Sequence record: KX011028.1
Strand: one strand, 5' to 3'
Source of the DNA: Staphylococcus phage pSco-10
Length of the DNA: 64,000 nt
Part shown: positions 2,667 through 19,703 of the stretch, in pieces
Position numbering within the stretch: position 1 is the stretch's first letter
Layout: each line of letters begins with the position of its first letter
Translations under genes and position numbers: made by a program
Notes under the pieces: generated by a model
What the model was told of the DNA's origin: nothing
The model's input: only the letters and a program-made list of their open reading frames with translations
The model's database searches: none

Positions 2667-2695
2667 ATTATATAGTAAAACTCTACCTAAGTCAA
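2667..2695 (-). promoter_or_regulatory. promoter TTGACT-17-TATAAT; -35 sits in the loop of terminator hairpin 2681..2704
   Basis: agtcaa 2690..2695, attata 2667..2672 on plus strand. Confidence 0.6.
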
Positions 2696-2704
2696 TAGGT
2701 AGAG
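2675..2704 (-). terminator. rho-independent terminator after gene 2715..3050 (stem CTCTACCT/AGGTAGAG, then TTTTAC)
   Basis: 8-bp perfect inverted repeat followed by U-rich run on minus strand. Confidence 0.5.
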
Positions 2705-2714
2705 TTAAAGTTTT

Positions 2715-3050
2715 TTATTTATTTTCTAATTCTTTTTTAGCATCCATAGCCTTTTCGAACACTTTTAATTTTTTATCGTCTCTTTCTTCTTTAGTAAGGT
2801 CATCATACACTAACTCTGAGAGGAGTGCTACTAATTCAGATAAAGCAGAGCCTTCATTAGCTTTTAAAAGGTCTCTTAAATAAACGTCTTTAGGCATCAT
2901 ACGACCTTCATAATGTGTTAATGTATGGACTACAACTAACTCTTCTTTCCCTTCTTCGTTGTACCCCTTAAGAAGATGACTACTTTCTTGCCTATAACCT
3001 TCTTGTTCTAAACGGTCAATAAATTGTTCTTGTGCAAATACGTTACTCAT
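2715..3050 (-). CDS. hypothetical protein (111 aa; true start MSNVFAQEQF, the track ORF is N-extended)
   Basis: AGGAGAtatt-ATG at 3050; promoter -10 at 3080. Confidence 0.55.
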   Translation of the reverse strand: MSNVFAQEQFIDRLEQEGYRQESSHLLKGYNEEGKEELVVVHTLTHYEGRMMPKDVYLRDLLKANEGSALSELVALLSELVYDDLTKEERDDKKLKVFEKAMDAKKELENK

Positions 3051-3079
3051 AATATCTCCTCCTAATTGATTATATATTA

Positions 3080-3108
3080 ATCTTAACACGTTATTTATCT
3101 GATGTCAA
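3080..3108 (-). promoter_or_regulatory. promoter TTGACA-17-TAAGAT
   Basis: tgtcaa 3103..3108 on plus strand. Confidence 0.55.
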
Positions 3109-3144
3109 CAGTTTTATAAAAAAGTATTTTAACTGATTTCTTTT

Positions 3145-3306
3145 TTATACAAACATCTGTAAAACTAGATGAATAATGAACAAAATAACTCCTGATATTA
3201 CTATACATATACTTACAATACCGTCAAAATAGTCTTGCCTATATCTATAAAATACTATCCCTATTATGATAAAGGTAATTAGTAGGATGTATAATACTAT
3301 GTTCAT
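3145..3306 (-). CDS. small membrane protein (53 aa; start MNIVLYILL)
   Basis: hydrophobic; RBS aagggggaa before ATG at 3306. Confidence 0.45.
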   Translation of the reverse strand: MNIVLYILLITFIIIGIVFYRYRQDYFDGIVSICIVISGVILFIIHLVLQMFV

Positions 3307-3335
3307 AATTAATTCCCCCTTACAAATTTGTGTTT

Positions 3336-3704
3336 TTAATCCTCCCAAACTAAACCTGTTCCTTGTACACGTTCCACTACTTTAAACCACACATATAATT
3401 TCTCAGTTAAAAATAGTTCTAAACTTTTTGCAGTGTCAAACTCTACAGTTTCCGATTCATGAAACCCTTCAGGCAAGTGAACTCTCAGACGTTTCACACC
3501 TTTGTAATAATCGTTGTCTTGAAAAACTTTAGACACTTTTATCTTTATTTCTGAATACAAATATCCAAAATACAATGTTAAACTTGAATTGTGGTGCCCA
3601 ATCCCTAAGTCTTTAAGCACAACCCTCTCACCATTATCTCCTACTAATAACCATTGACCTTTTCTATCTTTAAAATGTCGTACTAATAAATCCATGCTAT
3701 CCAT
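3336..3704 (-). CDS. hypothetical protein (122 aa)
   Basis: ORF track. Confidence 0.5.
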   Translation of the reverse strand: MDSMDLLVRHFKDRKGQWLLVGDNGERVVLKDLGIGHHNSSLTLYFGYLYSEIKIKVSKVFQDNDYYKGVKRLRVHLPEGFHESETVEFDTAKSLELFLTEKLYVWFKVVERVQGTGLVWED

Positions 3705-3735
3705 ACTAATTCCTCCTTATAAAATGTGTGTTTTA

Positions 3736-4515
3736 CTAAACACTAAACTCTTTATTCATTAAATTTTTTACCCAATCCTTATCGTCAACGTTATCAGACT
3801 CTTTTAACCGTGTAAGTATTGTTTGCATGTAAGGTATGGAACAATTATACTCTTCAGCTAACACTTTTACTGTATATGCTTTAAATCTTCTTTTGAAGTT
3901 AATCTCTTTTAAATCAGTTTCTCCTATTAATCTATATGAATTATTTCTCTTCTGATAAGGCTTCTTTCTATGCTGTAGTCCTGAAGACCACGCATGTGAA
4001 ACATTTTCTTCAAAAGGTATTATTTCTAAATTCTTATAGTAACAGTTATTTTTAACTCCATCTATATGGTTAACTACATAATCTTCAGGTATCTTTCCTA
4101 TAAAATGTTCAGCAACAAGTCTATGTACATAGTAGTATTTGTTCTTATACCTAAACCTCAAATATCCTTCATTATGTTTTGATAAACCAACTACTTTCAT
4201 TGGTGATGTTAATGTCGGTAATTTGATAACATCACCATAATTAGATAGATAGTACTCATTATCTGATTCACTAGCAAAACACAGTCTTTTCCATTCCTTT
4301 TTAGGGTCTAATAAGTTATCACAACTAAATAATTGAATAAGTGACTCATATTTGATTACTCTTGATTGTTTCAAGTTGTCAGGATAACACTGATATCCCT
4401 TTTTGTTTTTATTATATCGTACTTTAGCAAGTGTATTATCTTTCTTTACTCGGTACAATACTAAATCATTATCTAAGTAATAATTACTAAATCCATATTT
4501 TTCTAAATTAATCAT
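3736..4515 (-). CDS. free-standing HNH homing endonuclease (259 aa); HNH motif NHIDGVKNNCYYKNLE plus C-terminal HTH-like tail
   Basis: HNH_3-type motif in translation. Confidence 0.7.
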   Translation of the reverse strand: MINLEKYGFSNYYLDNDLVLYRVKKDNTLAKVRYNKNKKGYQCYPDNLKQSRVIKYESLIQLFSCDNLLDPKKEWKRLCFASESDNEYYLSNYGDVIKLPTLTSPMKVVGLSKHNEGYLRFRYKNKYYYVHRLVAEHFIGKIPEDYVVNHIDGVKNNCYYKNLEIIPFEENVSHAWSSGLQHRKKPYQKRNNSYRLIGETDLKEINFKRRFKAYTVKVLAEEYNCSIPYMQTILTRLKESDNVDDKDWVKNLMNKEFSV

Positions 4516-4573
4516 TCCTAAAACAACTCCTTATTAATAAAATGATTCTTTTAATTTGTTAGGGTTGTCTAAA

Positions 4574-4768
4574 TTATTTATTAGCCTTATCTAACGCTAA
4601 CATTAGTTCAGTCATTACATCTCTCTTTTCAAAATCAGATATTGGTAAATCAAGATACCCTTTAATAATCTTATGTGCTTGAACGTAACCTAAATCTTCA
4701 ATACCTTCCGATTTACTTACTACCTCATTTGCTTTATCATGTAAATTTTTAATTTGTTTGTTATTCAT
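4574..4768 (-). CDS. hypothetical protein (64 aa)
   Basis: RBS aaggagagg before ATG. Confidence 0.5.
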   Translation of the reverse strand: MNNKQIKNLHDKANEVVSKSEGIEDLGYVQAHKIIKGYLDLPISDFEKRDVMTELMLALDKANK

Positions 4769-4797
4769 GTTAACCTCTCCTTTTTCTTTATATCTAA

Positions 4798-4826
4798 AGT
4801 ATATTATAATAAATACCTGCTGTCAA
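4798..4826 (-). promoter_or_regulatory. promoter TTGACA-17-TATACT (the -35 lies in the palindrome cctgCTGTCAACAgg)
   Basis: tgtcaa 4821..4826, agtata 4798..4803 on plus strand. Confidence 0.6.
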
Positions 4827-4845
4827 CAGGTATTTATAAACTTAT

Positions 4846-5352
4846 TTATTTTTTCGTAATACCTATAATATCATCAAAGCTATATGCAATCTTACCCTCT
4901 ACATCATAACCTACATTAATGTGATACTCTGTATCCATTAACTGTGAGTGTATATGACCATGAATATTAAACATGTTTTTTCTACCTATTAGTGTAGGGT
5001 AATGGCTTAAATAAAATCTCTTACCTTCCTTTTTAATCATATCTACATATTTTACTGTAATACCGTTACGTTCATATATCCTTATAAGTTTCTTATGGTC
5101 ATGGTTGCCTGCAATCAGTATCATTTCTTTATAGTTTAATCTATTAAGTATATCTTCTACTTTAGAAGGTTTCATATTGAAAAAGAAGTCTCCAATATTA
5201 TAAACAATATCGTTATTTGTAATTGTATTATTCCATAACTCAATTAAACCCTCATTCATTTCTTCTACTGAGTGCCAATGACTCCTTGTAGGTGCTTCAA
5301 ATTCCCTAATATTATCATGACCAAAATGTAAATCACTAACAAAATAAATCAT
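4846..5352 (-). CDS. calcineurin-like metallophosphoesterase (168 aa); motifs DLHFGHD, GDFFF, GNHDH
   Basis: phosphoesterase signature motifs. Confidence 0.75.
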   Translation of the reverse strand: MIYFVSDLHFGHDNIREFEAPTRSHWHSVEEMNEGLIELWNNTITNNDIVYNIGDFFFNMKPSKVEDILNRLNYKEMILIAGNHDHKKLIRIYERNGITVKYVDMIKKEGKRFYLSHYPTLIGRKNMFNIHGHIHSQLMDTEYHINVGYDVEGKIAYSFDDIIGITKK

Positions 5353-5354
5353 TT

Positions 5355-5762
5355 TTATTCCTCCTTATTAAGCTCAATTAATGTATAAAGCCCTTCTCTA
5401 TCTAATTTGTATGAAAGTAATATCATGTTCTCTATATGACCTCCGAAAGGGGTTAAACCTTTCACATCAGAAACATCTACAGATGTTAGTTCTAAGTCAT
5501 ACATTTTTTGTAATGTATCTATAACTGTACTTTTACTTGCACTTATTATTATTTTATTTGATTCTTTATGAATTAAAGCATATTTACTTTCAACATAACC
5601 TGTGTGACCTAACTGTCTCCCTGGTTCCTGAATACCGAAAGATTCTCGTTCTTCTCTTAGCTCTTTTTTCTTTTTCCTTGCTTCTAGTACTTTAGTAATG
5701 CCAAGACCAATTAAACATAATATTAGTAGTATTGACCCTAAAACAAAATATACAATTACCAT
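5355..5762 (-). CDS. membrane-anchored protein (135 aa; N-terminal TM then KKKKELREERE)
   Basis: hydrophobic N-terminus. Confidence 0.5.
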   Translation of the reverse strand: MVIVYFVLGSILLILCLIGLGITKVLEARKKKKELREERESFGIQEPGRQLGHTGYVESKYALIHKESNKIIISASKSTVIDTLQKMYDLELTSVDVSDVKGLTPFGGHIENMILLSYKLDREGLYTLIELNKEE

Positions 5763-6067
5763 TATTGACTCATCTCCTCTAAATAATCATCTAAGATGCT
5801 TATGCCATAGGCATCTCCTTTTTCATAGTAGTGAACATCAGTATATGATTTACTCAGTAATCCTACAACTAAGCCATTGTTTGTCTTACTGAACTGTCTT
5901 AAGTTATACTCATACATATTATTATCTTCAAGTAAAACGATATCGTTATCGACTAATGTACCTTCCGTAGTATAAGATAACCCTTTTGCTGTTGTGTTAA
6001 TGAATTCTAAAAGCTCCTTTAGGATGTGTTTATTTTCTTCTTTATAAAATATAATAATCCCTTTCAT
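5762..6067 (-). CDS. hypothetical protein (101 aa)
   Basis: RBS aaggaggttaact before ATG; promoter 6097..6125. Confidence 0.55.
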   Translation of the reverse strand: MKGIIIFYKEENKHILKELLEFINTTAKGLSYTTEGTLVDNDIVLLEDNNMYEYNLRQFSKTNNGLVVGLLSKSYTDVHYYEKGDAYGISILDDYLEEMSQ

Positions 6068-6096
6068 AAGTTAACCTCCTTATTTCTTATACTCTT

Positions 6097-6125
6097 AGTA
6101 TATAATAAAAGAAACCTAGTGTCAA
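6097..6125 (-). promoter_or_regulatory. promoter TTGACA-17-TATACT; -35 lies in the loop of terminator hairpin 6111..6133
   Basis: tgtcaa 6120..6125 on plus strand. Confidence 0.6.
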
Positions 6126-6133
6126 TAGGTTTC
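6105..6133 (-). terminator. terminator hairpin GAAACCTA/TAGGTTTC followed by TTTTATTAT
   Basis: inverted repeat plus U-run on minus strand. Confidence 0.5.
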
Positions 6134-6144
6134 TTAAACTTTTT

Positions 6145-6810
6145 TTATAATGAAATTGGTTCTACAATACTCTCTAAGGTATTAGTTAAATGACCTAATC
6201 CATCATACGTAATATCTGTTTTAATAATACGATTAATAAGAGTACCTTCAGAATTTTGTAACTTAGTATCTATAACATGTTTACCTTCATCCTTAGCGTA
6301 TTCAATAACAATTAAGTATCCCTCAGGTAAATGTATACTTACTTTTCTTCTTTGAATGAGCATATTTCGGTCACTGATAGTAAAACTACCTACTTTAAGA
6401 CCGCTTGATAATTCTGCAATGATTCCTGGTAATTTGTCTTCCTGCTGAGTACCAACTAATTGTAGTTGTAACCAATTATAATACTCTTCTGTAGCTTTGA
6501 TATATAAATTATCTAAAAACTCCACAACAGACTCTTCTGAAGTTTCAAAATCATCAGGTATAGTATCATGAGTTACGGTACTGTCAGTTGTAACAATAAC
6601 TTCACCATTAGCTAGCACAACAATTGAACTGGCTACCCCTAGCTTTTCATTTTCTACATAGAATATAATTCCTTCTTCATCAGTAAGGCTATCTTTGAAT
6701 GATTGGCAGTCTTTATTACCTGTAAAGGATATCTTAGCCTTTTTAGGGCACCCACCAATTTCTTCTTGCTCATTAATAATTTTTTCCCATTCTTTTAAAT
6801 CAATACTCAT
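6145..6810 (-). CDS. hypothetical protein (221 aa)
   Basis: ORF track. Confidence 0.55.
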   Translation of the reverse strand: MSIDLKEWEKIINEQEEIGGCPKKAKISFTGNKDCQSFKDSLTDEEGIIFYVENEKLGVASSIVVLANGEVIVTTDSTVTHDTIPDDFETSEESVVEFLDNLYIKATEEYYNWLQLQLVGTQQEDKLPGIIAELSSGLKVGSFTISDRNMLIQRRKVSIHLPEGYLIVIEYAKDEGKHVIDTKLQNSEGTLINRIIKTDITYDGLGHLTNTLESIVEPISL

Positions 6811-6826
6811 TTTTTTCTTAAACCCC

Positions 6827-7099
6827 TTATTTATTATTTGTATTCATAAATCTTTTAAGGTCTCCAGTTTCAAAAGTACCTATTTTGATATCTTTAACTT
6901 CTTTACGTTCTTGCTCTTCTAAGTAAAGAATACCTAATGAGTTAGCTGTTGTAGCTATCATTCTTGTAATTTGCCCTGTATTATAATCCTTTTGTTTAAC
7001 TTTACCTTTTTTATATCTAACTAATTCTACAATATCTAAAGCCAAAATTAAAAAGTTATTTACCTTTAATGTTAAAATTTTCTTTTGCCTACTGTTCAT
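6827..7099 (-). CDS. hypothetical protein (90 aa)
   Basis: ORF track. Confidence 0.5.
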   Translation of the reverse strand: MNSRQKKILTLKVNNFLILALDIVELVRYKKGKVKQKDYNTGQITRMIATTANSLGILYLEEQERKEVKDIKIGTFETGDLKRFMNTNNK

Positions 7100-7110
7100 C
7101 TTTTTTCCTC

Positions 7111-7341
7111 CTATTTATTTAAGAATTTTTTAGCGTAAATCCACAAACCAATACATGCTATAATAGCCATTAAAACAATAGTTATAGTAATGTACATAGC
7201 TTCAGTATCTGATATTAAGTCAGGTTCCCAATTGTGTGCTATCGTTTCTTCTCTAGTTTCTGTATTACCACTTGTAGTGGTAGTAGGGCTAGTAGTTGTT
7301 GGATTACTTACAACAGGAACATGAGGTACCGTTACCGGCAT
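7111..7341 (-). CDS. small membrane protein with Thr/Pro-rich N-terminus (76 aa)
   Basis: C-terminal TM helix. Confidence 0.5.
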   Translation of the reverse strand: MPVTVPHVPVVSNPTTTSPTTTTSGNTETREETIAHNWEPDLISDTEAMYITITIVLMAIIACIGLWIYAKKFLNK

Positions 7342-7342
7342 A

Positions 7343-7753
7343 TTAATTTCCCCCTTTAGCCTGTTCGATTAAATCTTTTACTGCAAATACTTCAGGGTTC
7401 AATATTTTTAGAATATCCATAGGTATTCCATATACTAAGTAAAGAAATGCACCTAGAGATATGATTGATGTAACTATTACATAGGTCAAACCTAAACCTG
7501 ATAAATCTTCATAATCGTCAAATAGTAAGCTATAATCATCATCTCTATCTGTGTCATTTACCTTTTTATACTGATTAATGAGTATCTTCCATAAAAACAC
7601 AGTTAATGCTATGATTAGAATACCTACTATAATGTCTACAATACCATATACAATTTGATACTTTACTAATGCTTCCCAAGCATGTTGGCTAATATCACCT
7701 AACTTACCTCCAAGGGAATCAATTCTCTCTAACACTTTATCTTCTAATTTCAC
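7343..7753 (-). CDS. membrane protein (about 137 aa; GTG start MKLEDKV, the track ORF is N-extended)
   Basis: RBS aaggag 8 nt before GTG; two TM segments. Confidence 0.5.
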   Translation of the reverse strand: MKLEDKVLERIDSLGGKLGDISQHAWEALVKYQIVYGIVDIIVGILIIALTVFLWKILINQYKKVNDTDRDDDYSLLFDDYEDLSGLGLTYVIVTSIISLGAFLYLVYGIPMDILKILNPEVFAVKDLIEQAKGGN

Positions 7754-7769
7754 TACAAACACTCCTTTT

Positions 7770-7844
7770 TTAGTCCTCTGAATTATAACCGCTAACAAAA
7801 CCTAATACAAATAATACTGCTAGAATAAAAATTACGAATAACAT
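7770..7844 (-). CDS. 24-aa hydrophobic micro-ORF (MLFVIFILAVLFVLGFVSGYNSED); its stop overlaps the RBS of the next gene
   Basis: RBS gaggagg 8 nt before ATG, directly downstream of promoter 7876..7904; missed by the 60-aa cutoff. Confidence 0.35.
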   Translation of the reverse strand: MLFVIFILAVLFVLGFVSGYNSED

Positions 7845-7875
7845 AGGTCATACCTCCTCTTTATTTGTTAACTTA

Positions 7876-7904
7876 AGTATAACCTATATACACTCATTTG
7901 TCAA
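7876..7904 (-). promoter_or_regulatory. promoter TTGACA-17-TATACT with AT-rich UP-like region upstream
   Basis: tgtcaa 7899..7904 on plus strand. Confidence 0.6.
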
Positions 7905-7949
7905 CAGTTATTTATTCTTTTTATCAAATTTATTTTAAAAAATTTTATA

Positions 7950-8129
7950 CTATATAATTCCTAACCATAATAGTATATTCGGTAATGCTGATAAACTTAA
8001 AAGTACTACTGAAAACGATACTAACTTCAAATATTCTTTCAAGCCATCAAAACCACATAAAATTAACGGAACTACCAAAGAGTATACTATAATTATTAAT
8101 ATTGTAATTAAAATAGGTGTTATTAGCAT
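7950..8129 (-). CDS. small two-TM membrane protein (59 aa, MLITPILITILIIIVYSL...)
   Basis: RBS aaggagag before ATG; missed by track cutoff. Confidence 0.45.
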   Translation of the reverse strand: MLITPILITILIIIVYSLVVPLILCGFDGLKEYLKLVSFSVVLLSLSALPNILLWLGII

Positions 8130-8134
8130 TCTTA

Positions 8135-8311
8135 TCTCTCCTTATCAAATTGTTTTGTTGTTGCAATTTTATACTCTTTATCAGGGTTTCTTTCCTCTAA
8201 TCTATCTTTTAACTCTTCTAATACTGAAATATCTCTATGTGCTCTAACTTGCCTAGGGATTTTCTTTTTACCTACTTTATCATAATAACATAATGCATAC
8301 CATTCAGACAT
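8135..8311 (-). CDS. small basic protein (58 aa, MSEWYALCYYDKVGKKK...)
   Basis: ATG immediately follows the TAG stop of the upstream gene (translational coupling); missed by track. Confidence 0.4.
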
Positions 8312-8740
8312 CTACTTCACTAATCCTTTCTCTTTAGTCCATATTAACGTATGTGTACCATCATCATTTACCGTGTGTAGCGTTTCTACGGGCTCTTCAT
8401 GTGCTTCTGCTTTATTCAACATAAGTTTTATTGGGTAGTTTTCGTCAATTCTCACACGCTGATAACCAAAATCATCCTTTAAATACGTCTTTTTAAAAGT
8501 TGTCATTAGCTTAGGTATAACTGTATCTTCCGTAATTTCTTCCTCGACTTCGGCTTCGAAAATGACGTTTTTAGAAATACGCCAGTCTGATGAAAACTCT
8601 CCTTTATCATTAATGCTAATAGAGACTACATAACCTTTTTCATCATGTCCTCTAAATGATAAATTTCTCACATCGTTATCCCACGCCCACTCAATCAACT
8701 GTGGTAAGTTTAGTTGTTTCTTAGTTTTGATTTTTACCAT
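8312..8740 (-). CDS. hypothetical protein (142 aa)
   Basis: ORF track. Confidence 0.55.
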   Translation of the reverse strand: MVKIKTKKQLNLPQLIEWAWDNDVRNLSFRGHDEKGYVVSISINDKGEFSSDWRISKNVIFEAEVEEEITEDTVIPKLMTTFKKTYLKDDFGYQRVRIDENYPIKLMLNKAEAHEEPVETLHTVNDDGTHTLIWTKEKGLVK

Positions 8741-9090: not shown

Positions 9091-9104
9091 AAGTTCACCT
9101 CCAA

Positions 9105-9410: not shown

Positions 9411-9441
9411 AATAATCATCTCCTGTACTTGTTATACATAT

Positions 9442-9470
9442 AGTATAATACAAAAGTTTAGAAGTGTCAA
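9442..9470 (-). promoter_or_regulatory. promoter TTGACA-17-TATACT
   Basis: tgtcaa 9465..9470 on plus strand. Confidence 0.6.
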
Positions 9471-9479
9471 CACTTATTT

Positions 9480-12826: not shown

Positions 12827-12855
12827 ACTATACTACATTTATTTGTTCTTGTCAA
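12827..12855 (-). promoter_or_regulatory. promoter TTGACA-17-TATAGT located inside the 3' end of gene 12839..13396
   Basis: tgtcaa 12850..12855 on plus strand. Confidence 0.55.
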
Positions 12856-13396: not shown

Positions 13397-13400
13397 TGCC

Positions 13401-13643
13401 CTATCTCCTTTGATTTATTTGAGCTATCGACTTAAGTAAGAATTTATAATTTCTTTTAAAGTTTTTTGCTTCGAGCTTACCGAATTTACTTTGGATACGT
13501 TTTTTAGCTTTGTGAGCCGTACCTCCTTCCAGTATCGGGTTTAGTAAATCTACACTTAACTCTAGTACTCTCTCCTCTGAAAGCTCATCATCTGAAACTA
13601 GCCTTACAAATGCATCAAATCTTTCTAAATCTTCCATTTCCAT
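13401..13643 (-). CDS. hypothetical protein (about 80 aa; start MEMEDLERF)
   Basis: RBS ggaaggagag before ATG; the track's N-extension runs into the terminator. Confidence 0.5.
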   Translation of the reverse strand: MEMEDLERFDAFVRLVSDDELSEERVLELSVDLLNPILEGGTAHKAKKRIQSKFGKLEAKNFKRNYKFLLKSIAQINQRR

Positions 13644-13668
13644 AATTAATCTCTCCTTCCTATATATT

Positions 13669-13697
13669 AATATACCACAAAACAAAAAAAGAGTCAA
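13669..13697 (-). promoter_or_regulatory. promoter TTGACT-17-TATATT; -35 is the 3' arm of terminator 13684..13712
   Basis: agtcaa 13692..13697 on plus strand. Confidence 0.55.
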
Positions 13698-13712
13698 GAA
13701 TTAACTTGACTC
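13684..13712 (-). terminator. terminator GAGTCAAG/CTTGACTC followed by a U7 run (the palindrome also carries TTGACT on both strands)
   Basis: perfect 8-bp inverted repeat plus TTTTTTTGTTTTG on minus strand. Confidence 0.6.
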
Positions 13713-13792
13713 AATCACTATTCCATAAGTAATAAATGATAGCAATAAAGATGACAACAATAAGTACTGTCATTTTTAGTCACCCCCTCTTA

Positions 13793-14200
13793 TTACTTTT
13801 CGGTTGGTACTGCCTCAAACCTATACTTATGAGTTGGATTATCTTCACCATCTTCAGTATATACCCTAATAAGCTTGAAATTTACCCCTTCTTTAAATCT
13901 ACTTGTTTTGTAGTACCTCATATCTATGCTGTTATCTCCTGTTCTACCTGGGAGGTAAGTAGGTAATGTTTCCATAAAATAAGCCTTATTATCCTTAACC
14001 TCTTTCAATGTATAGTCACCAACAAATTCTACATTCTTTTCTTCTTTAATCTTTCCTGTGTTTGATAACTCAGTAGAGACTTGATTTTTTGCTTTGTCGT
14101 GATACATGAAAGAAGATATATAATAAGATGAGATAGAAAAAGCCAAAACAATAATCACTAGTACATAAAATATACTTGCTTTTTTTGACATAACTAACAC
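13793..14200 (-). CDS. N-terminally membrane-anchored protein (135 aa)
   Basis: signal/TM segment. Confidence 0.55.
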   Translation of the reverse strand: MLVMSKKASIFYVLVIIVLAFSISSYYISSFMYHDKAKNQVSTELSNTGKIKEEKNVEFVGDYTLKEVKDNKAYFMETLPTYLPGRTGDNSIDMRYYKTSRFKEGVNFKLIRVYTEDGEDNPTHKYRFEAVPTEK

Positions 14201-14205
14201 CTCTA

Positions 14206-14248
14206 TACAAAAAATGTCTCCTCTTACAGTTATAATATAAGAGGAGAC
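14206..14248 (-). terminator. terminator with 11-bp stem GTCTCCTCTTA/TAAGAGGAGAC followed by ATTTTTTG
   Basis: long perfect inverted repeat plus U-run. Confidence 0.6.
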
Positions 14249-14254
14249 TAATTA

Positions 14255-14965
14255 TTAATCTATAATTTTAACACATTTATCTAGAAGTGAGCAGTAAATC
14301 ATTCTGTCATTTCCAACTAACTCTCGTAATTTGCTATAATACTCAATTAAATTATCGGAATCCGTTAATTCATGGTAAAAATCAAGGACTTCATTAATAC
14401 GTTTTTCAAAAAACTTATTATCAACAATCTCTAAATGAGAAATTTCTTCTCCTGTTACCAATCTCAAGTCTTCTAATTCAACATCATGTACCTGCTTATC
14501 ATCTTTAATATCTTCAAGTAACTCATGCTGTTGATATTCGATACTTGTATTATTAATACGGACTAAAGGTTTTAAAACATGAGAAGTTTCATAAAGATTT
14601 CTAGGCATTTTACCTCTTAAATGGTCAAATTCTTCTGATTCTGATAGAAGACCTATACTAACTCCAATATATTGTCCTGCCTGTACTTCACTAGAATAGC
14701 CTTTTGGTATTGTACAGATATAAAGCTTATCAGGTTCATATAATGGTTTAGATGCAGGAAAATTATCTACAACATCTTTTAATCCTTGAGCATCTAATAA
14801 GTTTTCTTTTAGTTCATCTAGTGTATATAGCTTCTCTTCTGTTTCTTCTTCTACTTCAGGCTCTTCAGAAGGAGCCACTTCTTCAGTGAACTCCTCTTCA
14901 GATACCCATTTATCTTTATTACGCATGTCATTTAACTGTTCTTGAAATGATTTTTTATTTCTCAT
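14255..14965 (-). CDS. hypothetical acidic protein (236 aa)
   Basis: ORF track. Confidence 0.55.
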   Translation of the reverse strand: MRNKKSFQEQLNDMRNKDKWVSEEEFTEEVAPSEEPEVEEETEEKLYTLDELKENLLDAQGLKDVVDNFPASKPLYEPDKLYICTIPKGYSSEVQAGQYIGVSIGLLSESEEFDHLRGKMPRNLYETSHVLKPLVRINNTSIEYQQHELLEDIKDDKQVHDVELEDLRLVTGEEISHLEIVDNKFFEKRINEVLDFYHELTDSDNLIEYYSKLRELVGNDRMIYCSLLDKCVKIID

Positions 14966-14981
14966 ATTATAACCTCTTTAC

Positions 14982-15425
14982 TTACTCAACGACAATACTA
15001 TCTTCTTCTAATGCTTTGTCCTTAAGTTCAGATTTTCTTTCTACATGGTATAAATCTAAGATGTAATATAAACCATTCTTATGAATATTATATTTACTGT
15101 AAATGTCCTGTAAATTCATATATTGATAATCTTTAATAATCTCTTTAACTAAGTCTTTATCCTTTAAGATGTGTGCAATTTTTTCTTCTACAGGTGATTT
15201 CTTATTACGTTTACCTACTTTATAGTAGTTTAATACTGTGTAAATTAATCCCATACTTACTTTAGCTTCTTTTGCAATGTAATCTAAAGGTTTACCTTCA
15301 TTATAACTTGTTACAATGAATTCTTCCTTAGGTGTGTTAAACTCTCTTGATGTTTCTAATGGTGTGTACTTGCTTTTCTCTTTAGTTAATAATGCTTTCT
15401 CTTCTTGATTTAATGAAATAAACAT
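14982..15425 (-). CDS. hypothetical protein (147 aa)
   Basis: promoter 15459..15487. Confidence 0.55.
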   Translation of the reverse strand: MFISLNQEEKALLTKEKSKYTPLETSREFNTPKEEFIVTSYNEGKPLDYIAKEAKVSMGLIYTVLNYYKVGKRNKKSPVEEKIAHILKDKDLVKEIIKDYQYMNLQDIYSKYNIHKNGLYYILDLYHVERKSELKDKALEEDSIVVE

Positions 15426-15458
15426 AATTGTTAGCTCCTTTATTTTTAGTATACATAT

Positions 15459-15487
15459 ACTATATCATATACTTTAAGAACTGTCAA
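15459..15487 (-). promoter_or_regulatory. promoter TTGACA-17-TATAGT
   Basis: tgtcaa 15482..15487 on plus strand. Confidence 0.6.
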
Positions 15488-15489
15488 CC

Positions 15490-15948
15490 TTAATCTTTAA
15501 TTTTATTTAATTTATTTTCATCAAAGAGCATTGTTTCTCCTGTAAGTGCATAGAAATAATTACCATTGTTATCTGTAAGAATTTCTTTAATCATAGCAAC
15601 ATCTTTTTCTTGGTCTTCTCTTGTATATTCTACAATAGTATCTTTAGGATACTTAACCTTAGTTGTTTCTGAGTATTCTTCATCTAGGTAAACATCAAAT
15701 GTTATAAGAGAGTTAACAGATACATTATATAGAACCCAATGCCTTTTATAGTAGAATGATTCTTTATCTAGGTCTCTAGATACTTCAGTAAACTTGTGTT
15801 TCCCTGGGCTCATTCTAACAAGGATATCTCCTTGGTTGTCTTGCTTCACTCTCAACACTTTTCCTTCTTTTAAATATGTCATAATCTCTACTATATCATC
15901 AATTGGCTTAGCATCTTGTATTGGATTTAAACTAATCTCATCTGCCAT
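15490..15948 (-). CDS. hypothetical protein (152 aa)
   Basis: ORF track. Confidence 0.55.
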   Translation of the reverse strand: MADEISLNPIQDAKPIDDIVEIMTYLKEGKVLRVKQDNQGDILVRMSPGKHKFTEVSRDLDKESFYYKRHWVLYNVSVNSLITFDVYLDEEYSETTKVKYPKDTIVEYTREDQEKDVAMIKEILTDNNGNYFYALTGETMLFDENKLNKIKD

Positions 15949-15965
15949 TACTCTAACCTCACTAT

Positions 15966-16697
15966 CTAAATTGTATAGCCTACTCTATCAAGAGCTTCTT
16001 TTAATTTTCTACTTTCCTCATCTAAATCTAGGTTTTTGTAGAATTCATTTTGTAGTTCTTCTAATCGTTGTAATACCTCTTCATGCTTTTCTTCAGGTAT
16101 AAATTCTAATAATACTTCACTCATAGCTGTATCTTGAGCTGTTTGTTTTAATTGTAATTCTCTAAGTCCAATAAATGACATACCTTTTAATTGATTTCCG
16201 GTAATCTTATCTTTTGTTTCCATTGCACGTATCATTAAAGCAGGGTCTAAAGTTTCCACAAATTCTAATCCTTTTGCACCTTTAGAAATAATCATATCTA
16301 GTACTTGAATATCATCATAAATTGTTTGTGTATGATGTTTTGATTGCTCAAATGGAGAAAGTTGCTCCTCTTCTAATATAGGAGTTTCTTTTTCCTTAAT
16401 ATCTTTTACACTTGTTTTTTTACGTTTATCTATTAATTCTCCTAAATCCCAACCATTTTCAATAGCTTCTTTTCGTTTACTCTTATATCTTGTAATAGCT
16501 GATTTAGACAATTCTAAGTCATATTCTTTACAGAGTTCTATAATATCATCATAACTCATATCCTCATCTAATGCATTATCTACCTTTGAGCGTAGTAATT
16601 TATTATGGTATAGTTTAGATAATATACTCTCTTTTTCTTTATCAGGAACAACTTTTATATCACTGTTTTTATTTCGTAAATTCTTTTTTCTAGCCAT
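15966..16697 (-). CDS. hypothetical protein (about 243 aa; start MARKKNLRNKN)
   Basis: RBS aaggagag before ATG at 16697. Confidence 0.55.
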   Translation of the reverse strand: MARKKNLRNKNSDIKVVPDKEKESILSKLYHNKLLRSKVDNALDEDMSYDDIIELCKEYDLELSKSAITRYKSKRKEAIENGWDLGELIDKRKKTSVKDIKEKETPILEEEQLSPFEQSKHHTQTIYDDIQVLDMIISKGAKGLEFVETLDPALMIRAMETKDKITGNQLKGMSFIGLRELQLKQTAQDTAMSEVLLEFIPEEKHEEVLQRLEELQNEFYKNLDLDEESRKLKEALDRVGYTI

Positions 16698-16721
16698 TAT
16701 ATAGCTCTCCTTAACTGTCAT

Positions 16722-17055
16722 TTATTTATGGTAACTGGTTTTCTGAAACCAGTTTAATGAACATAAACAAACCTTACCACATCAACTGTTTCAAGGTTAC
16801 ACTATATAATATATCATAATTTCTGTTATTATTTCATAATATATAAATGTAATATAATTTTATTAACTACTTTGTATAAAATTTTAATATATTTTTTAAC
16901 TAATTACGAAGCCTTTACCTAAAAGATATTTTAACTTTTCATAAATATAATTTCACAGAAACTAGAGTAAGTAGAAAAAACCTAACTAGCTTCTGTATTA
17001 AAAACATTATGAAAACTTCTTATATAACGTATATTTATACTTAATTACTACATAT
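16722..17055. other. 334-bp AT-rich non-coding spacer with hairpin AACTGGTTT/AAACCAGTT at 16733..16754
   Basis: no ORF on either strand; very low GC; short repeated A/T words. Confidence 0.5.
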
Positions 17056-17919
17056 TTATAATAAAATAGTTAAGGTATCGTCACCTTTTAAGTTAATAAC
17101 TATCTCAGTTAATTTCTTAGTATCATTTTCAATTTTAACATAACTAGACTTAATGTCTTTAGTGTTAACTTTAACATATGATTGACCGCAAGCAATAGTA
17201 ATAATATCCGTATCTTCTAAAAAGAATATACCTGTCTCATGTGTATTATATAAATTGAAGTAATAGTCTTTACTTAGTAGTTTAACACAAAATACACTTT
17301 TACTTATTAAACTATTATTTCTGAAGAATGCTAATAACTTCTCTGTATCACCTTTAGATAACTTATCTTTCTTAGATAACATACCAAATAGTGTTTGACC
17401 ATCATATAATTTTTCTGTAGTAAGAAGATATACAATATGAGTATAACCATTTAATGGTGATTCCTCTTCTAATTTATATAAACGTAATTTAATATCTTTA
17501 GCTATTGTAATATCTTGGTAAGTTACAGTAGGTTCTATGAATGTACTTACAATATCTACTTTCTTAGTAGAAGTTAAGTTAGTACCCCTAGCTAGTAAAT
17601 CTGTCATTAATCCTGTTTCTTCTAATTCTTTTTTAAGTTGTTCAGTTCTAACATACCCAAGACCTGAAGAACCTAATTGATTATTCATTCCTACTACAGC
17701 TTGTTTCATTGATTCCACTACATTTACTTTATTAACAAACTGGAGACCTTCATCTACATTGTCTATATCTTCAATGTAGGATTGTACTGTAACACCTGAA
17801 GGGAAGTAATCACTATCATAAGATACCCCTAGTAATTCTACTTTACCGCTTGTTAGTGTCTTATATAAGGTCTTAATGGTTGTAGGTTTATCTACATGTT
17901 CTGAAAATCCTTTTAACAT
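17056..17919 (-). CDS. hypothetical protein (287 aa)
   Basis: ORF track. Confidence 0.55.
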   Translation of the reverse strand: MLKGFSEHVDKPTTIKTLYKTLTSGKVELLGVSYDSDYFPSGVTVQSYIEDIDNVDEGLQFVNKVNVVESMKQAVVGMNNQLGSSGLGYVRTEQLKKELEETGLMTDLLARGTNLTSTKKVDIVSTFIEPTVTYQDITIAKDIKLRLYKLEEESPLNGYTHIVYLLTTEKLYDGQTLFGMLSKKDKLSKGDTEKLLAFFRNNSLISKSVFCVKLLSKDYYFNLYNTHETGIFFLEDTDIITIACGQSYVKVNTKDIKSSYVKIENDTKKLTEIVINLKGDDTLTILL

Positions 17920-18365
17920 TATTTATCTTTCCTTTCCGCTTTAACTCTATGTCTTGTCTTAAATATAAATATCAAATGTTTACCTCTAAAAGTTCTTTGC
18001 TCTCTGATACTACACTTCCCAATGAGTTTCTTACCTCTATGAACATAATAAACTCGGTCTGTATGGAGTATAGATTCTGTTTTCTTTCCTTTTTGCTTAA
18101 GAGATAGATAAGTTTCTTTAACATCAAGTGCTTCACTAATAAGGTTTAATGCATATTTTTTCTGTAGCTTAACATCAGTATTAGTAACGTTATCAAATCT
18201 TTTAATAAAAAGTATTCTATACTCAATAACAGATGTCGTATCTTTAGGTTCTGAAGGCTTTTTAGCTAAGAAACTATTATTAGCTCCTGTTAAAGTATTT
18301 GTAGGGGCAAAGTTAACAGGTTGATGTTGTATCTCTTTACGTCTATTTGGTTTGTCTTTGCTCAT
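17919..18365 (-). CDS. hypothetical basic protein (148 aa)
   Basis: ORF track. Confidence 0.5.
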   Translation of the reverse strand: MSKDKPNRRKEIQHQPVNFAPTNTLTGANNSFLAKKPSEPKDTTSVIEYRILFIKRFDNVTNTDVKLQKKYALNLISEALDVKETYLSLKQKGKKTESILHTDRVYYVHRGKKLIGKCSIREQRTFRGKHLIFIFKTRHRVKAERKDK

Positions 18366-19110
18366 TGATTACTCTTACCCCATTCTTCATAGTATTAAAG
18401 AAATCCTCTTCTATTACCTCCCACCTATTATTATAACCATAAATAACACCCCTTGTAAAGAGTTTATAGGTATTATCTACCCCTACATAGTGTATTATCT
18501 GATTAATAATAGCAGGTTTCTTCATTCTTTTACTCTGTGTTGTTTGGGAGAAGTTACCCTCACCACCACTGTATCTACCACTAGCATTATAACTATACCC
18601 TGTTCTATACGTATGAGGGTCTCTAATCAGTCTAAGTATTGTCATAAGGTTAGTCTTCCATAATATATTCATTGTGTGATAAGGGCTTCTGTGTGGTGAT
18701 GGTGTAGCGTCTTTATACTTACCTACAACAGGTTTACCTTTAAAACTGATATAGCTCATAATACCTACATGAGTATGCTTATATCTCTTTAGTATTTGTT
18801 CTACTTTAGGTACATGTTTATCATGACACATTACATATACATACTTACATACTAAGCTGTAATACTTTAGCTGATTGTTTAACCTTTGAGTAGAATCTCT
18901 CTCAGTCTTTATTTCTATACCCATGACAGTGCCATTACGGTCTAACACTAAGCAATCTGTCCTACACTTACCTTGACAGATTACTTTCTCATTAAAGATA
19001 CGTATATCATTTATATCACTAGTTATTTCGTCATCTTTAAACATGTGTTTTTTAGTTCTTATAAGGTCTTTAATATCTTTTTCATAGAACTTAACTACAT
19101 CGTTAGACAT
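18343..19110 (-). CDS. PD-(D/E)XK nuclease-like protein (255 aa; motif CLVLD...GIEIKTE)
   Basis: D...(E)xK motif in translation. Confidence 0.45.
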   Translation of the reverse strand: MSNDVVKFYEKDIKDLIRTKKHMFKDDEITSDINDIRIFNEKVICQGKCRTDCLVLDRNGTVMGIEIKTERDSTQRLNNQLKYYSLVCKYVYVMCHDKHVPKVEQILKRYKHTHVGIMSYISFKGKPVVGKYKDATPSPHRSPYHTMNILWKTNLMTILRLIRDPHTYRTGYSYNASGRYSGGEGNFSQTTQSKRMKKPAIINQIIHYVGVDNTYKLFTRGVIYGYNNRWEVIEEDFFNTMKNGVRVINEQRQTK

Positions 19111-19639
19111 TTAATCTATCTCCTTTGACTCTCTTACAGTATTCTACAACACTTTCTAAAGGAGTGTAAGTTCTATTCCATTTAACATTTGTTAGACCTA
19201 TAAAAACACCTGTGTATTGACCATGAACTACTCTAGTTGGTTCTTTCTGTGAGTAAATAGTTCTATCTCTATCTCTCTCAAAGAACCCTTTACCAGTTTT
19301 ACCTGTTATTGTATCCACCCCTAAAGGAATAATATTAGCCACAAATATAGGGTCATCTACGACCTTCTTAGGGTATTTACGTTGAGGCATCATACTCTTA
19401 ATTAAGTTACTAAGAGGTGTTCCTCCTGGTATTGTCCGTTGATAAGACTCTATTCTATATTTCTTCTGAGGATTTTCTTTTTCCTCTCTATCATGTATAT
19501 CATATACAATAACATACTCTGATAGTTCTTCCTCTACATGCTCAATAAAATAGTAAGGTGTATCATTGAAATAGTATACACCTTCACTAATTCTCACTGC
19601 TAATGAACTTTCATCAAAAGCACTAAAATTAAAATCCAT
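19103..19639 (-). CDS. hypothetical protein (178 aa)
   Basis: promoter 19660..19688. Confidence 0.55.
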   Translation of the reverse strand: MDFNFSAFDESSLAVRISEGVYYFNDTPYYFIEHVEEELSEYVIVYDIHDREEKENPQKKYRIESYQRTIPGGTPLSNLIKSMMPQRKYPKKVVDDPIFVANIIPLGVDTITGKTGKGFFERDRDRTIYSQKEPTRVVHGQYTGVFIGLTNVKWNRTYTPLESVVEYCKRVKGDRLNV

Positions 19640-19659
19640 TTTTAAGTCACCTCTATATT

Positions 19660-19688
19660 AATATACCATATATAGTAAAAAGAGTCAA
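19660..19688 (-). promoter_or_regulatory. promoter TTGACT-17-TATATT; -35 is the 3' arm of terminator 19676..19703
   Basis: agtcaa 19683..19688 on plus strand. Confidence 0.55.
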
Positions 19689-19703
19689 GTAAAGACTTGA
19701 CTC
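19676..19703 (-). terminator. terminator GAGTCAAGT/ACTTGACTC followed by TTTTTACTAT
   Basis: 9-bp inverted repeat plus U-run. Confidence 0.55.

What the first reader, a model, noticed from the sequence alone, without database searches (positions are those of the whole stretch)
2667..19703. Terminator-promoter fusion elements: the -35 hexamer is embedded in the loop or 3' arm of an intrinsic terminator hairpin
At 2675..2704, 6105..6133 and 10691..10725 the TTGACA/TTGACT hexamer sits in the hairpin loop. At 13684..13712 and 19676..19703 a palindrome GAGTCAAG...CTTGACTC supplies TTGACT in its 3' arm, followed by a U-run whose first residues start the 17-nt spacer to TATATT. Transcription termination of the upstream gene and initiation of the next therefore share the same 30 bp. 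Terminator RNA folding and RNA-polymerase -35 recognition are physically coupled here, which points to a compact insulated-cistron design. The 13691 palindrome carries the hexamer on both strands.
Basis: seen in the sequence. Interest (0 to 1): 0.6.

Follow-up and report, generated by a model that had tools for sequence, protein, structure and literature searches.

The report
Staphylococcal phage terminators fused to promoters
In this Staphylococcus myovirus (phage K relative), the hairpin that ends one early transcription unit physically contains the -35 box of the promoter that starts the next; this is real and conserved, but its parts are already listed in published phage K-group transcript maps.

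Summary
The window comes from a Staphylococcus Twortvirinae phage (Kayvirus-like, 89-97% identical to known ones). The T-run after the stem lies in the 17-bp spacer.

Published RNA-seq of the relative vB_SauM-515A1 lists the orthologous sequences both as terminators (t165, t174, t194, t198) and as unit-starting promoters (p166, p175, p195, p199). RefSeq phage K annotates one as a terminator.

At one junction, seven Twortvirinae lineages keep a hairpin over the -35 with five unrelated stem sequences. That argues for an RNA structure, not a protein operator.

The 10691-10725 hairpin is not a terminator: it has no U-run, the upstream ORF ends inside it, and it is poorly conserved.

The elements bound multi-gene units, not single cistrons. 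The parts are known; the nested layout is a recurrent design I found discussed nowhere for these phages. Interest is modest.

The parts
2679..2706 (-). Hairpin of composite element E1. 11-bp perfect stem AACTCTACCTA/TAGGTAGAGTT; the loop TTGACT is the -35. A short U-run (UUUUAC) follows, 8 nt after the stop codon of ORF 2715..3089.
   Evidence: -15.7 kcal/mol, z -5.2; compensatory C-G to T-A change in the stem of PG-2021_35, which shares a 98.8% identical downstream gene.
2667..2695 (-). Promoter of E1: TTGACT-17-TATAAT. It drives the 493-aa gene 1154..2635.
   Evidence: The ortholog is p208 of 515A1. In 515A1 the spacer lacks the T-run and no terminator was called.
4809..4837 (-). Hairpin of composite element E2, not in the finding. 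ATAAATACCTG-TTGACAG-CAGGTATTTAT, with the -35 in the loop. The U-tract is weak in this phage (UAUAAUAUAC).
   Evidence: -13.5 kcal/mol, z -3.8. The ortholog is t198 of 515A1, which carries T6 after the stem.
4798..4826 (-). Promoter of E2: TTGACA-17-TATACT.
   Evidence: The ortholog is p199, which starts TU34 in 515A1.
6109..6135 (-). Hairpin of composite element E3. AAGAAACCTA-TTGACAC-TAGGTTTCTT, with the -35 in the loop. The U-rich tail UUAUUAUAUACU runs through the spacer into the -10.
   Evidence: -11.8 kcal/mol, z -3.3. The ortholog is t194 of 515A1.
6097..6125 (-). Promoter of E3: TTGACA-17-TATACT.
   Evidence: The ortholog is p195, which starts TU33.
10691..10725 (-). Hairpin around the -35 of an internal promoter. 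It is NOT a terminator: no U-run, and the stop codon (10696..10694) of ORF 10694..10990 lies in the 3' arm.
   Evidence: -15.2 kcal/mol, z -4.4.: -8.0 in PG35/86, -6.7 in LM12/P4W, none in EW7. No terminator is listed in 515A1 (p182 only).
10686..10714 (-). [quoted passage not shown]
   Evidence: Annotated as a promoter in LM12, overlapping CDS LM12_0057.
13684..13712 (-). Terminator of composite element E5. The palindrome GAGTCAAG-TTAATT-CTTGACTC is followed by T7. The stop codon TGA (13713..13711) of the 20-aa pufA-like ORF overlaps the 5' arm, and the -35 TTGACT lies in the 3' arm.
   Evidence: z -4.3. The ortholog is t174 of 515A1. The LM12 record annotates an overlapping terminator and promoter here. 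Different stems occur in PG40, BE09 and SscM-2.
13669..13697 (-). Promoter of E5: TTGACT-17-TATATT with TG extension (TGGTATATTA).
   Evidence: The ortholog is p175, which starts the highly transcribed TU32.
19676..19704 (-). Terminator of composite element E6. AGAGTCAAGT-CTTT-ACTTGACTCT is followed by T5. The stop codon TAG (19705..19703) of ORF 19703..20014 overlaps the 5' arm, and the -35 lies in the 3' arm.
   Evidence: -14.3 kcal/mol, z -4.6. The ortholog is t165 of 515A1. It is annotated 'terminator' in phage K NC_005880.2 at 116475-116496. Seven lineages carry five unrelated stem sequences.
19660..19688 (-). Promoter of E6: TTGACT-17-TATATT with TG extension. The ATG of gene 19103..19639 follows, only 63 nt after the upstream stop codon.
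   Evidence: The ortholog is p166, which starts TU31.
12109..12166 (-). Abutting class. Terminator AAGCTAACA-TTAATT-TGTTAGCTT is followed by TTTTA, which runs straight into TTGACA-17-TATAGT.
   Evidence: The same layout occurs at 22676..22735, 32686..32744 and 51987..52047.
47100..47138 (-). Third layout. The hairpin TATATACCAC...GTGGTATA encloses the whole promoter from the -35 (47128..47123) to the -10 (47105..47100).
   Evidence: The orthologs are t129 and p130 (start of TU26) of 515A1.

Best explanation
Each element is two ordinary signals written on the same ~30-45 bp of the minus strand.

(1) A Rho-independent terminator for the upstream early transcription unit. Its hairpin starts at or within about 10 nt of the upstream stop codon.

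(2) A near-consensus host sigma-A early promoter for the next unit.

The -35 hexamer sits in the hairpin loop (2695, 4826, 6125) or in the 3' arm (13697, 19688). The 3' arm and the U-run occupy the 17-bp spacer, and in the loop type the U-rich tail runs into the -10.

Upstream transcripts therefore should end about 10-20 nt before the next transcription start. They never cross the -10 or the start site. The new transcript starts downstream of the hairpin, so it does not carry it and is not terminated by it.

The result is back-to-back transcription units with almost no spacer (63-79 nt from stop codon to next start codon). Each unit's output is set by its own promoter.

Shown here:
- sequence anatomy;
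- folding stability far above shuffles;
- T enrichment after the stems;
- conservation of the hairpin-over-(-35) layout across Twortvirinae genera through compensatory change.

Shown by others, in a close relative: RNA-seq coverage down-steps and up-steps at the orthologous sequences.

Inferred:
- that the same holds in this phage;
- the exact 3' ends;
- termination efficiency, probably high at 13697 and 19688 and lower at 2695 and 4826, whose U-runs are short;
- any benefit beyond compaction and insulation.
For: Origin and strand:
- The window is a Kayvirus-like Staphylococcus phage. Genes and 26 of 27 strict promoters lie on the minus strand.

Structure:
- Hairpins fold at -11.8 to -15.7 kcal/mol, z -3.3 to -5.2, with 0 of 200 shuffles as stable. 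Plain promoters fold at -1.7 to -6.7 kcal/mol.
- The 7 nt after the stem hold 4.8 T, against 3.0 T at the same offsets in 86 plain promoters.

Experimental support from a relative:
- Kornienko et al. 2020 (PMC7698491), Table S3, lists t165, t174, t194 and t198 with these very sequences as RNA-seq-derived terminators.
- Their Table S2 lists p166, p175, p195 and p199 at the same positions as the promoters that start TU31-TU34.
- GenBank LM12 annotates an overlapping promoter and terminator at the 13697 ortholog. RefSeq phage K annotates the 19688 hairpin as a terminator.

Conservation:
- At the junction upstream of gene 19103..19639, seven Twortvirinae lineages (36-99% protein identity) all place a stem of 9-10 pairs (of 10 positions) over the -35, using five unrelated stem sequences.
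- Own-arm pairing is 9.9 of 10, against 5.1 of 10 for arms swapped between lineages.
- In Sciuriunavirus the -35 itself changed (TTGACT to TTGCTT) and the 5' arm changed with it, giving two compensatory pairs.
- The same holds at the 13697 junction.

Generality:
- In 515A1, at least 20 of 43 RNA-seq terminators contain, enclose or abut an early promoter.
- In each Twortvirinae locus scanned, 20-50% of terminator-like hairpins contain a consensus -35.
Against: - No 3'- or 5'-end mapping exists for this phage. The 515A1 data are coverage steps, not Term-seq or dRNA-seq, so coincident ends are not resolved at nucleotide level.
- U-runs are short at 2695 (4 U) and poor at 4826 in this window. The 2695 ortholog in 515A1 (p208) was not called a terminator.
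- The 10714 hairpin shows that a strong hairpin can surround a -35 without any terminator features. So a hairpin alone does not prove termination.
- The T-enrichment and conservation statistics use orthologous, non-independent sites.
Confidence: 0.8

Rival explanations
1. The inverted repeats are operators. A dimeric phage or host DNA-binding protein would bind the palindrome centred on or next to the -35 and switch these early promoters off or on.
For: The repeats are symmetric about the -35. Three loop-type sites share ACCTR...YAGGT next to the hexamer, and two sites share GAGTCAAG/CTTGACTC.
Against: - Arm sequences differ between sites and between lineages: CTCTACCTA, ATACCTG, AAACCTA, ACTCCCT, ACCACCTA, GACCCCT, AACACCC, AGGTAAGTAG, CAAGTTAGGG.
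- Loop length, and so half-site spacing, varies from 3 to 9 nt.
- The register of the stem relative to the -35 shifts by up to 8 nt between orthologs.
- G.U pairs are tolerated.
- A T-run follows the stem.
- The shared TA/TG before TTGACA is a general feature of plain promoters too.
Confidence: 0.04
2. The overlap has no function of its own. It is a by-product of genome compaction in a phage where terminators and promoters must both fit into 60-80-nt intergenic gaps. The hairpins may mainly protect mRNA 3' ends.
For: - Intergenic gaps are equally short (about 79 nt) at abutting sites such as 12137. Nesting therefore saves only about 10-20 nt per junction.
- Both classes coexist.
- In the one non-Twortvirinae region scanned (Listeria phage cka8), no terminator contains a -35.
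Against: - The total saving is trivial for a 140-kb genome.
- Yet the nested layout is kept at the same junction in seven lineages while the stem sequence turns over completely. This suggests selection on the arrangement itself, or at least on both signals staying in place.
Confidence: 0.3
3. The fusion is a polymerase hand-off device. Core RNA polymerase released from the RNA inside the next promoter's spacer would rebind sigma-A and reinitiate at once. Successive early units would thereby be coupled and scarce host polymerase kept on phage DNA.
For: - Post-termination sliding and reinitiation are documented for E. coli and B. subtilis RNAP (PMC6978322, PMC6978380, PMC10372574).
- The predicted release point lies at about -10 to -20 of a consensus promoter.
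- A 2026 preprint reports genome-wide promoter-terminator coupling in bacteria.
Against: - Coupling by sliding is calculated to be efficient up to about 1000 bp, so zero distance is not needed.
- There are no data for S. aureus RNAP or for this phage.
- A terminating complex also occludes the promoter until it leaves.
Confidence: 0.12
4. The composite elements are module boundaries. Repeated, similar terminator-promoter cassettes would serve as short homologies at which gene cassettes are exchanged between related phages.
For: - 7 of 42 homology breakpoints against five relatives lie within -35..+60 nt of a -35 start, a window covering 6.7% of the sequence (p = 0.02). Examples are 2718, 4854/4873 and 6148. 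The block 4860-6148 runs exactly from one element to the next.
- The loop-type cassettes share AAAAAASTTTA upstream and TATACT-AAGAGTATA downstream.
- 515A1 t198 carries an 11-nt duplication inside the element.
Against: - Breakpoints are expected to survive preferentially in any intergenic DNA.
- The enrichment is modest, and most breakpoints lie elsewhere.
Confidence: 0.1

Closest known systems
Early sigma-70-type promoters and Rho-independent terminators of Kayvirus vB_SauM-515A1 (Kornienko et al. 2020, Viruses 12:1320, Tables S2 and S3): pairs t165/p166, t174/p175, t194/p195, t198/p199, t204/p205, t69/p68
   Same: They are orthologous, nearly identical sequences at the same gene junctions. 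Both activities were inferred from RNA-seq coverage steps, and each promoter starts a transcription unit.
   Different: - This window is a different phage, 89-97% identical.
- Its 2695 element has a T-run and an 11-bp stem, where 515A1 p208 has neither a T-run nor a called terminator.
- Its 4826 element lacks the T6 and the 11-nt duplication of t198.
- The paper lists the two feature sets separately and does not comment on their nesting.
Annotated 'terminator' features of phage K RefSeq NC_005880.2 and overlapping promoter/terminator features of vB_SauM_LM12 (MG721208)
   Same: The 19688 hairpin is the phage K terminator at 116475-116496. The 13697 element is LM12 promoter 25347-25375 overlapping terminator 25369-25390.
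   Different: These are in-silico annotations only, and no function was tested there.
Promoter-terminator coupling or overlap in bacterial genomes (bioRxiv 10.64898/2026.08.19.745784, 'Widespread coupling of promoters and terminators of transcription in bacteria')
   Same: It states the general idea that initiation and termination sites of adjacent units are coupled. The text contains the phrase 'promoter and terminator overlap'.
   Different: I could not open the paper. I therefore do not know whether the -35-in-hairpin layout or phages are covered.
Bidirectional intrinsic terminators (A-tract, hairpin, U-tract)
   Same: The loop-type elements have AAAAAA(C/G)TTT upstream and a T-run downstream. 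The plus strand therefore also reads as hairpin plus T-run (plus-strand hits at 2679, 4809 and 6109).
   Different: - There are no plus-strand genes or strong plus-strand promoters here.
- The upstream A-tract lies at about -50 to -55 of the promoter and may equally be an UP element (inference).
Post-termination RNAP sliding and reinitiation (Harden 2020; Kang 2020; PNAS 2023, PMC10372574)
   Same: A terminator immediately upstream of a strong promoter is the geometry in which reinitiation would be most efficient.
   Different: That is a biochemical phenomenon shown for E. coli and B. subtilis RNAP. Nothing here shows it operates in this phage.

Membership tests
Intrinsic (Rho-independent) terminator | Stable G+C-containing RNA stem-loop on the coding strand | tested here: met
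   - -11.8 to -15.7 kcal/mol, z -3.3 to -5.2, for all six hairpins.
- One search lists 2679-2706, 4809-4837, 6109-6135, 13691-13712 and 19681-19704.
Intrinsic (Rho-independent) terminator | U-rich tract immediately 3' of the stem | tested here: inconclusive
   - Met at 13697 (U7), 19688 (U5) and 6125 (UUAUUAU).
- Marginal at 2695 (UUUUAC) and 4826 (UAUAAUA).
- Not met at 10714.
- Overall, 4.8 T against 3.0 T per 7 nt in plain promoters.
Intrinsic (Rho-independent) terminator | Position just downstream of a stop codon, outside translated RNA | tested here: met
   - Stop codons lie 8-9 nt before the stem (2695, 4826, 6125) or overlap the first bases of the 5' arm (13697, 19688).
- Not met at 10714, where the stop codon lies in the 3' arm.
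Intrinsic (Rho-independent) terminator | Transcript 3' ends at the U-tract | not testable with these tools
   Only indirect: RNA-seq coverage down-steps at the orthologs t165, t174, t194 and t198 in 515A1.
Sigma-A / sigma-70 housekeeping promoter | -35 TTGACA and -10 TATAAT-like hexamers 17 +/- 1 bp apart | tested here: met
   10-11 of 12 consensus matches with a 17-bp spacer at all six sites.
Sigma-A / sigma-70 housekeeping promoter | Correct placement: upstream of a gene with an RBS on the same strand | tested here: met
   An AGGAG-type RBS and an ATG lie 20-45 nt downstream of each -10.
Sigma-A / sigma-70 housekeeping promoter | Primary 5' ends 6-8 nt downstream of the -10 | not testable with these tools
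   Only indirect: up-steps at p166, p175, p195 and p199 in 515A1.
Palindromic operator of a dimeric repressor | Conserved half-site sequence and fixed half-site spacing across sites and relatives | tested here: not met
   Arms are unrelated between sites and lineages, loops vary from 3 to 9 nt, and the register shifts.
Curated RNA families (Rfam 15) | Match to any covariance model at gathering score | tested here: not met
   There were 0 matches in the whole window.

The most novel reading that the evidence does not exclude
Nesting the promoter inside the preceding terminator may be a selected design rule of Twortvirinae, not an accident of compaction. It applies to early sigma-A promoters and, apparently, to the late TGTTATATTA promoters as well.

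The design would make every unit boundary a one-way valve. Incoming polymerases stop inside the next promoter, while transcripts born there lack the 5' arm and escape. Released polymerase might also be handed directly to the next promoter.

If true, it would give a natural, portable 'terminator-promoter' part. It would also be a test case for termination-reinitiation coupling in a Gram-positive host.
Probability: 0.2. Interest if true: 0.6.

Novelty: new member of a known kind. Interest (0 to 1): 0.3.

Why it matters
For phage K-like therapeutic phages, these elements define where early transcription units end and begin, which helps annotation and engineering. Inserting or deleting genes at these junctions will break a terminator and a promoter at once.

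The elements are also ready-made 45-bp terminator-promoter parts for Staphylococcus synthetic biology.

More generally, they are a clear, evolutionarily conserved natural example of promoter-terminator overlap. They could be used to test whether termination and reinitiation are coupled.

It is not a new kind of element. Both halves are textbook signals and are already listed for close relatives.

Tried and rejected
- Column-based covariation for the 19688 junction. MAFFT aligned the seven orthologs on TTGAC, not on the stems, because the stem register shifts by up to 8 nt. The count of structure pairs was therefore not applicable, and I used an own-arm versus swapped-arm pairing matrix instead. 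My first matrix had the BE09 arms mis-registered by 1 nt; this was corrected.
- IMG/VR scan for more orthologs of gene 19103..19639. It gave only 8 loci from genera already in hand.
- Reading the 2026 preprint on promoter-terminator coupling. It is not retrievable, so only the title, the start of the abstract and phrase counts are known.
- Literature search for an explicit description of -35-in-hairpin in Twort-like phages. None was found in the Kayvirus papers opened or among the search hits. Lobocka et al. 2012 is not held, so I cannot exclude that it is mentioned there.
- Operator hypothesis. Rejected on arm diversity.
- 10691..10725 as a terminator. Rejected.
- Divergent plus-strand promoters from the palindromic -35. 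Rejected for lack of a -10.
- Known RNA families and tRNAs. None found.
- My first blastn breakpoint run mixed all loci, because L001.fa holds several records. It was redone per subject.
- My first shuffles were mononucleotide shuffles. The dinucleotide-preserving z-scores are those.

Full report
**What the window is.** The region is 30.7% G+C. It matches Staphylococcus Twortvirinae myoviruses. The best DNA matches are PG-2021_35 (97%) and many Kayvirus genomes at 89-93%. The protein of ORF 19103..19639 is 98.9% identical to that of vB_SsapH-Golestan-105-M. All sizeable ORFs in 1..22000 are on the minus strand.

**Check of the observation.** On the minus strand there are 26 strict TTGACN-N17-TAnnnT promoters and 1 on the plus strand. 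Resampled sequence gives 3.2 +/- 1.7 for both strands together (listing). The generic scan finds 15 terminator-like sites against 4.0 +/- 2.1 in shuffles.

- 2706..2679: AACTCTACCTA-TTGACT-TAGGTAGAGTT
- 6135..6109: AAGAAACCTA-TTGACAC-TAGGTTTCTT
- 10725..10691: a 12-bp stem with one G.U and the -35 in the apical part
- 13712..13691: GAGTCAAG-TTAATT-CTTGACTC followed by T7
- 19704..19681: AGAGTCAAGT-CTTT-ACTTGACTCT followed by T5

In every case a -10 follows after exactly 17 bp. A sixth element at 4837..4809 (ATAAATACCTG-TTGACAG-CAGGTATTTAT) was missed.

All six fold far better than dinucleotide shuffles: -11.8 to -15.7 kcal/mol, z -3.3 to -5.2, with 0 of 200 shuffles as good. Eight plain promoters of the same window give -1.7 to -6.7 kcal/mol. 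A random hexamer overlaps a hairpin of at least 8 pairs with probability 0.04, whereas 5 of 29 -35 boxes do (p = 0.006).

**The wider pattern in the window.** There are about twelve terminator-like minus-strand hairpins.

- Five contain a consensus -35.
- Four end in a T-run that runs directly into a -35: 12166..12143, 22735.., 32744.. and 52047...
- Three stand alone.
- A further layout at 47138..47102 encloses the whole promoter from -35 to -10.

Terminator and promoter are thus almost always fused or touching.

**Published evidence for both activities.** Kornienko et al. 2020 (PMC7698491) mapped coverage up-steps and down-steps in Kayvirus vB_SauM-515A1.

- Their Table S3 lists as terminators t165, t174, t194 and t198. 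These sequences are the orthologs of the window elements at 19688, 13697, 6125 and 4826.
- Their Table S2 lists, at the same positions, promoters p166, p175, p195 and p199. Each is marked as initiating a transcription unit, TU31 to TU34.
- TU32, started by p175, is among the most highly transcribed. It holds 20 genes and four promoters.
- The ortholog of 2695 (p208) and that of 10714 (p182) are listed only as promoters.
- The LM12 GenBank record annotates a promoter and a terminator that overlap by 7 bp at the 13697 ortholog.
- RefSeq phage K annotates the 19688 hairpin as a terminator.
- None of the papers I could open comments on the nesting.

Refolding all 43 terminators of Table S3 gives the following.

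- 7 have TTGAC in the loop or 3' arm.
- 5 enclose a larger part of an early promoter.
- 8 abut a -35.
- About 6-8 contain or abut the late-promoter motif TGTTATATTA.

**Comparative test: structure or sequence?** I fetched the homologous region from nine Twortvirinae genomes and small junction fragments from more distant ones. Orthology of the flanking genes was checked by tblastn.

At the junction upstream of gene 19103..19639, seven lineages all have a stem of 9-10 pairs (of 10 positions) over the -35:

- Kayvirus-like: AGAGTCAAGT/ACTTGACTCT
- Silviavirus CF5: GGAGTCAAGT/ACTTGACTCT
- Silviavirus SAP6: GGAGTCCAGT/ACTTGACTCC
- Sciuriunavirus: AGAAGCAAGT/ACTTGCTTCT
- Sepunavirus: AGTAGAGGCA/TGCTTCTACT
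- Mammaliicoccus phages: AGGTAAGTAG/CTACTTACCT
- Alsa_4: CAAGTTAGGG/CCTTAACTTG

Each 5' arm pairs with its own 3' arm at 9.9 of 10 positions on average. With arms of other stem families it pairs at only 5.1 of 10. In Sciuriunavirus the -35 itself drifted to TTGCTT and the 5' arm followed, giving two compensatory pairs inside the hexamer. The stem's register relative to the -35 shifts by up to 8 nt.

The 13697 junction behaves the same way in Silviavirus, Sepunavirus, Sciuriunavirus and PG-2021_40. In Sepunavirus the 5' arm is formed by the last codons of the pufA-like mini-ORF. The 2695 hairpin differs from that of PG-2021_35 by a C-G to T-A double change, although the downstream protein is 98.8% identical.

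After the stems, T is enriched: 4.8 versus 3.0 T per 7 nt at the same spacer offsets in plain promoters. The sites are not independent, so the nominal p-value should not be taken literally.

This pattern has free arm sequence, preserved pairing, tolerated G.U pairs, variable loop length and a following T-run. That is what an RNA terminator hairpin predicts. It is the opposite of what a protein operator predicts.

**Outside Twortvirinae.** At the same gene junction:

- Enterococcus EFLK1 and Levilactobacillus ENFP1 have a terminator followed at once by a TGCTATATT / CTTATATTA motif.
- Listeria P100plus and Bacillus BSP38 have no intergenic signal.
- A 40-kb Listeria phage region had no nested case among 8 terminator-like hairpins.

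Nesting of the -35 looks like a Twortvirinae habit, on a small sample.

**The exception.** The 10725..10691 hairpin is stable in this phage, but several features argue against a terminator.

- It is followed by A-rich sequence.
- The upstream ORF (annotated in LM12 and P4W) reads through the -35 and stops inside the 3' arm.
- The hairpin is much weaker in close relatives and absent in EW7.
- No terminator is listed there in 515A1.

It should not be counted as a terminator-promoter fusion.

**How it most likely works.** I take the -10 as about -11..-6, following the 515A1 start-site spacing.

- The 3'-arm type (13697, 19688) ends its stem at about -28 and its U-run at about -21. Upstream RNAs should end roughly 20 nt before the next start.
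- In the loop type (2695, 4826, 6125) the stem ends at about -18 to -20. The U-rich tail runs into the -10, so release would occur at the edge of the -10.

Upstream polymerases therefore never cross the -10 or the start site. The downstream transcript begins beyond the hairpin and is immune to it. The stop codon of the upstream gene sits 8-9 nt before the stem or overlaps its first bases. The whole stop-to-start distance is only 63-79 nt.

These steps are inferred from sequence and from coverage-level RNA-seq in a relative. Exact ends, efficiencies and any kinetic coupling are untested.

Post-termination sliding and reinitiation of bacterial RNAP is documented and is efficient over about 1 kb. 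A hand-off is therefore possible, but it does not require overlap. Compaction alone saves only about 10-20 nt per junction. The persistence of the layout through complete stem turnover hints at selection on the arrangement, but does not prove it.

The elements are new members (orthologs) of already listed Kayvirus terminators and promoters. The explicit recognition that promoters are systematically nested in terminators, and that this is conserved by compensatory evolution across genera, is a modest addition. Interest is 0.3.

Noticed in passing
window 13711..13773 (minus): A 20-aa hydrophobic mini-ORF, MTVLIVVIFIAIIYYLWNSD, has a strong RBS (GAGGGGGTGA). Its TGA stop overlaps the 5' arm of the 13712 hairpin. 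It equals 'pufA, peptide of unknown function' in P4W. Homologous mini-ORFs occur in Silviavirus and Sepunavirus.
   Followed up: partly
window 24222..24276 (minus), late motif at 24257..24266: The late-promoter motif TGTTATATTA lies inside a -29 to -31 kcal/mol hairpin (GCCTTCCTTGTG...CATAGGGAAGGC) followed by TTTTTC. It is the ortholog of t157/pL158 of 515A1. Transcripts started inside would carry only the 3' arm. So late promoters also appear to be nested in terminators.
   Followed up: partly
window 13668..13677 and 19659..19668 (minus): The two palindrome-type promoters have the -10 region TGGTATATTA, one mismatch from the late consensus TGTTATATTA. This region is part of a 12-bp palindrome, TATATTAATATA. 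They may be active both early (through the -35) and late. This is speculative.
   Followed up: no
window 2651..2672, 6083..6102, 10674..10694 (minus): The promoters at 2695, 6125 and 10714 share AAAAAA(C/G)TTTA about 15-20 nt upstream of the -35. They also share AAGAGTATA right after the -10, which forms a TATACT-AAG-AGTATA palindrome over the start site. They look like copies of one promoter cassette.
   Followed up: partly
window 1..23000 versus L001-L005: Homology blocks with related phages often start or end at these junctions: 2718, 4854/4873, 6148, 7936, 10734 and 11442. That is 7 of 42 breakpoints in 6.7% of the sequence (p = 0.02). Block 4860-6148 runs from one element to the next, which suggests cassette-wise mosaicism.
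   Followed up: partly
window 1154..2635 (minus): The 493-aa protein has several 29-35% identical paralogs in related genomes, 3-4 copies each in PG-2021_35 and PG-2021_86. This is a multi-copy gene family in the variable early region.
   Followed up: no
window 4574..4768 (minus); L008:2102-2293: This 64-aa protein is 86% identical in Sepunavirus BE09. The other genes compared with BE09 are 33-63% identical. This suggests a recent exchange between genera.
   Followed up: no
window 648..704 (minus) and 48..68 (plus): The promoter at 689 has its -35 inside a large loop closed by CCGCTTCA...TGAAGCGG (-14.2 kcal/mol). A second hairpin with the same GAAGCGG/CCGCTTC arms lies at 48..68.
   Followed up: no
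window 59953..60034 (minus): A -22.7 kcal/mol hairpin pairs the -10 region of the early promoter at 60033 (GGTATACTTATAAAG) with sequence that overlaps a downstream TGTTATATTA late motif at 59976.
   Followed up: no
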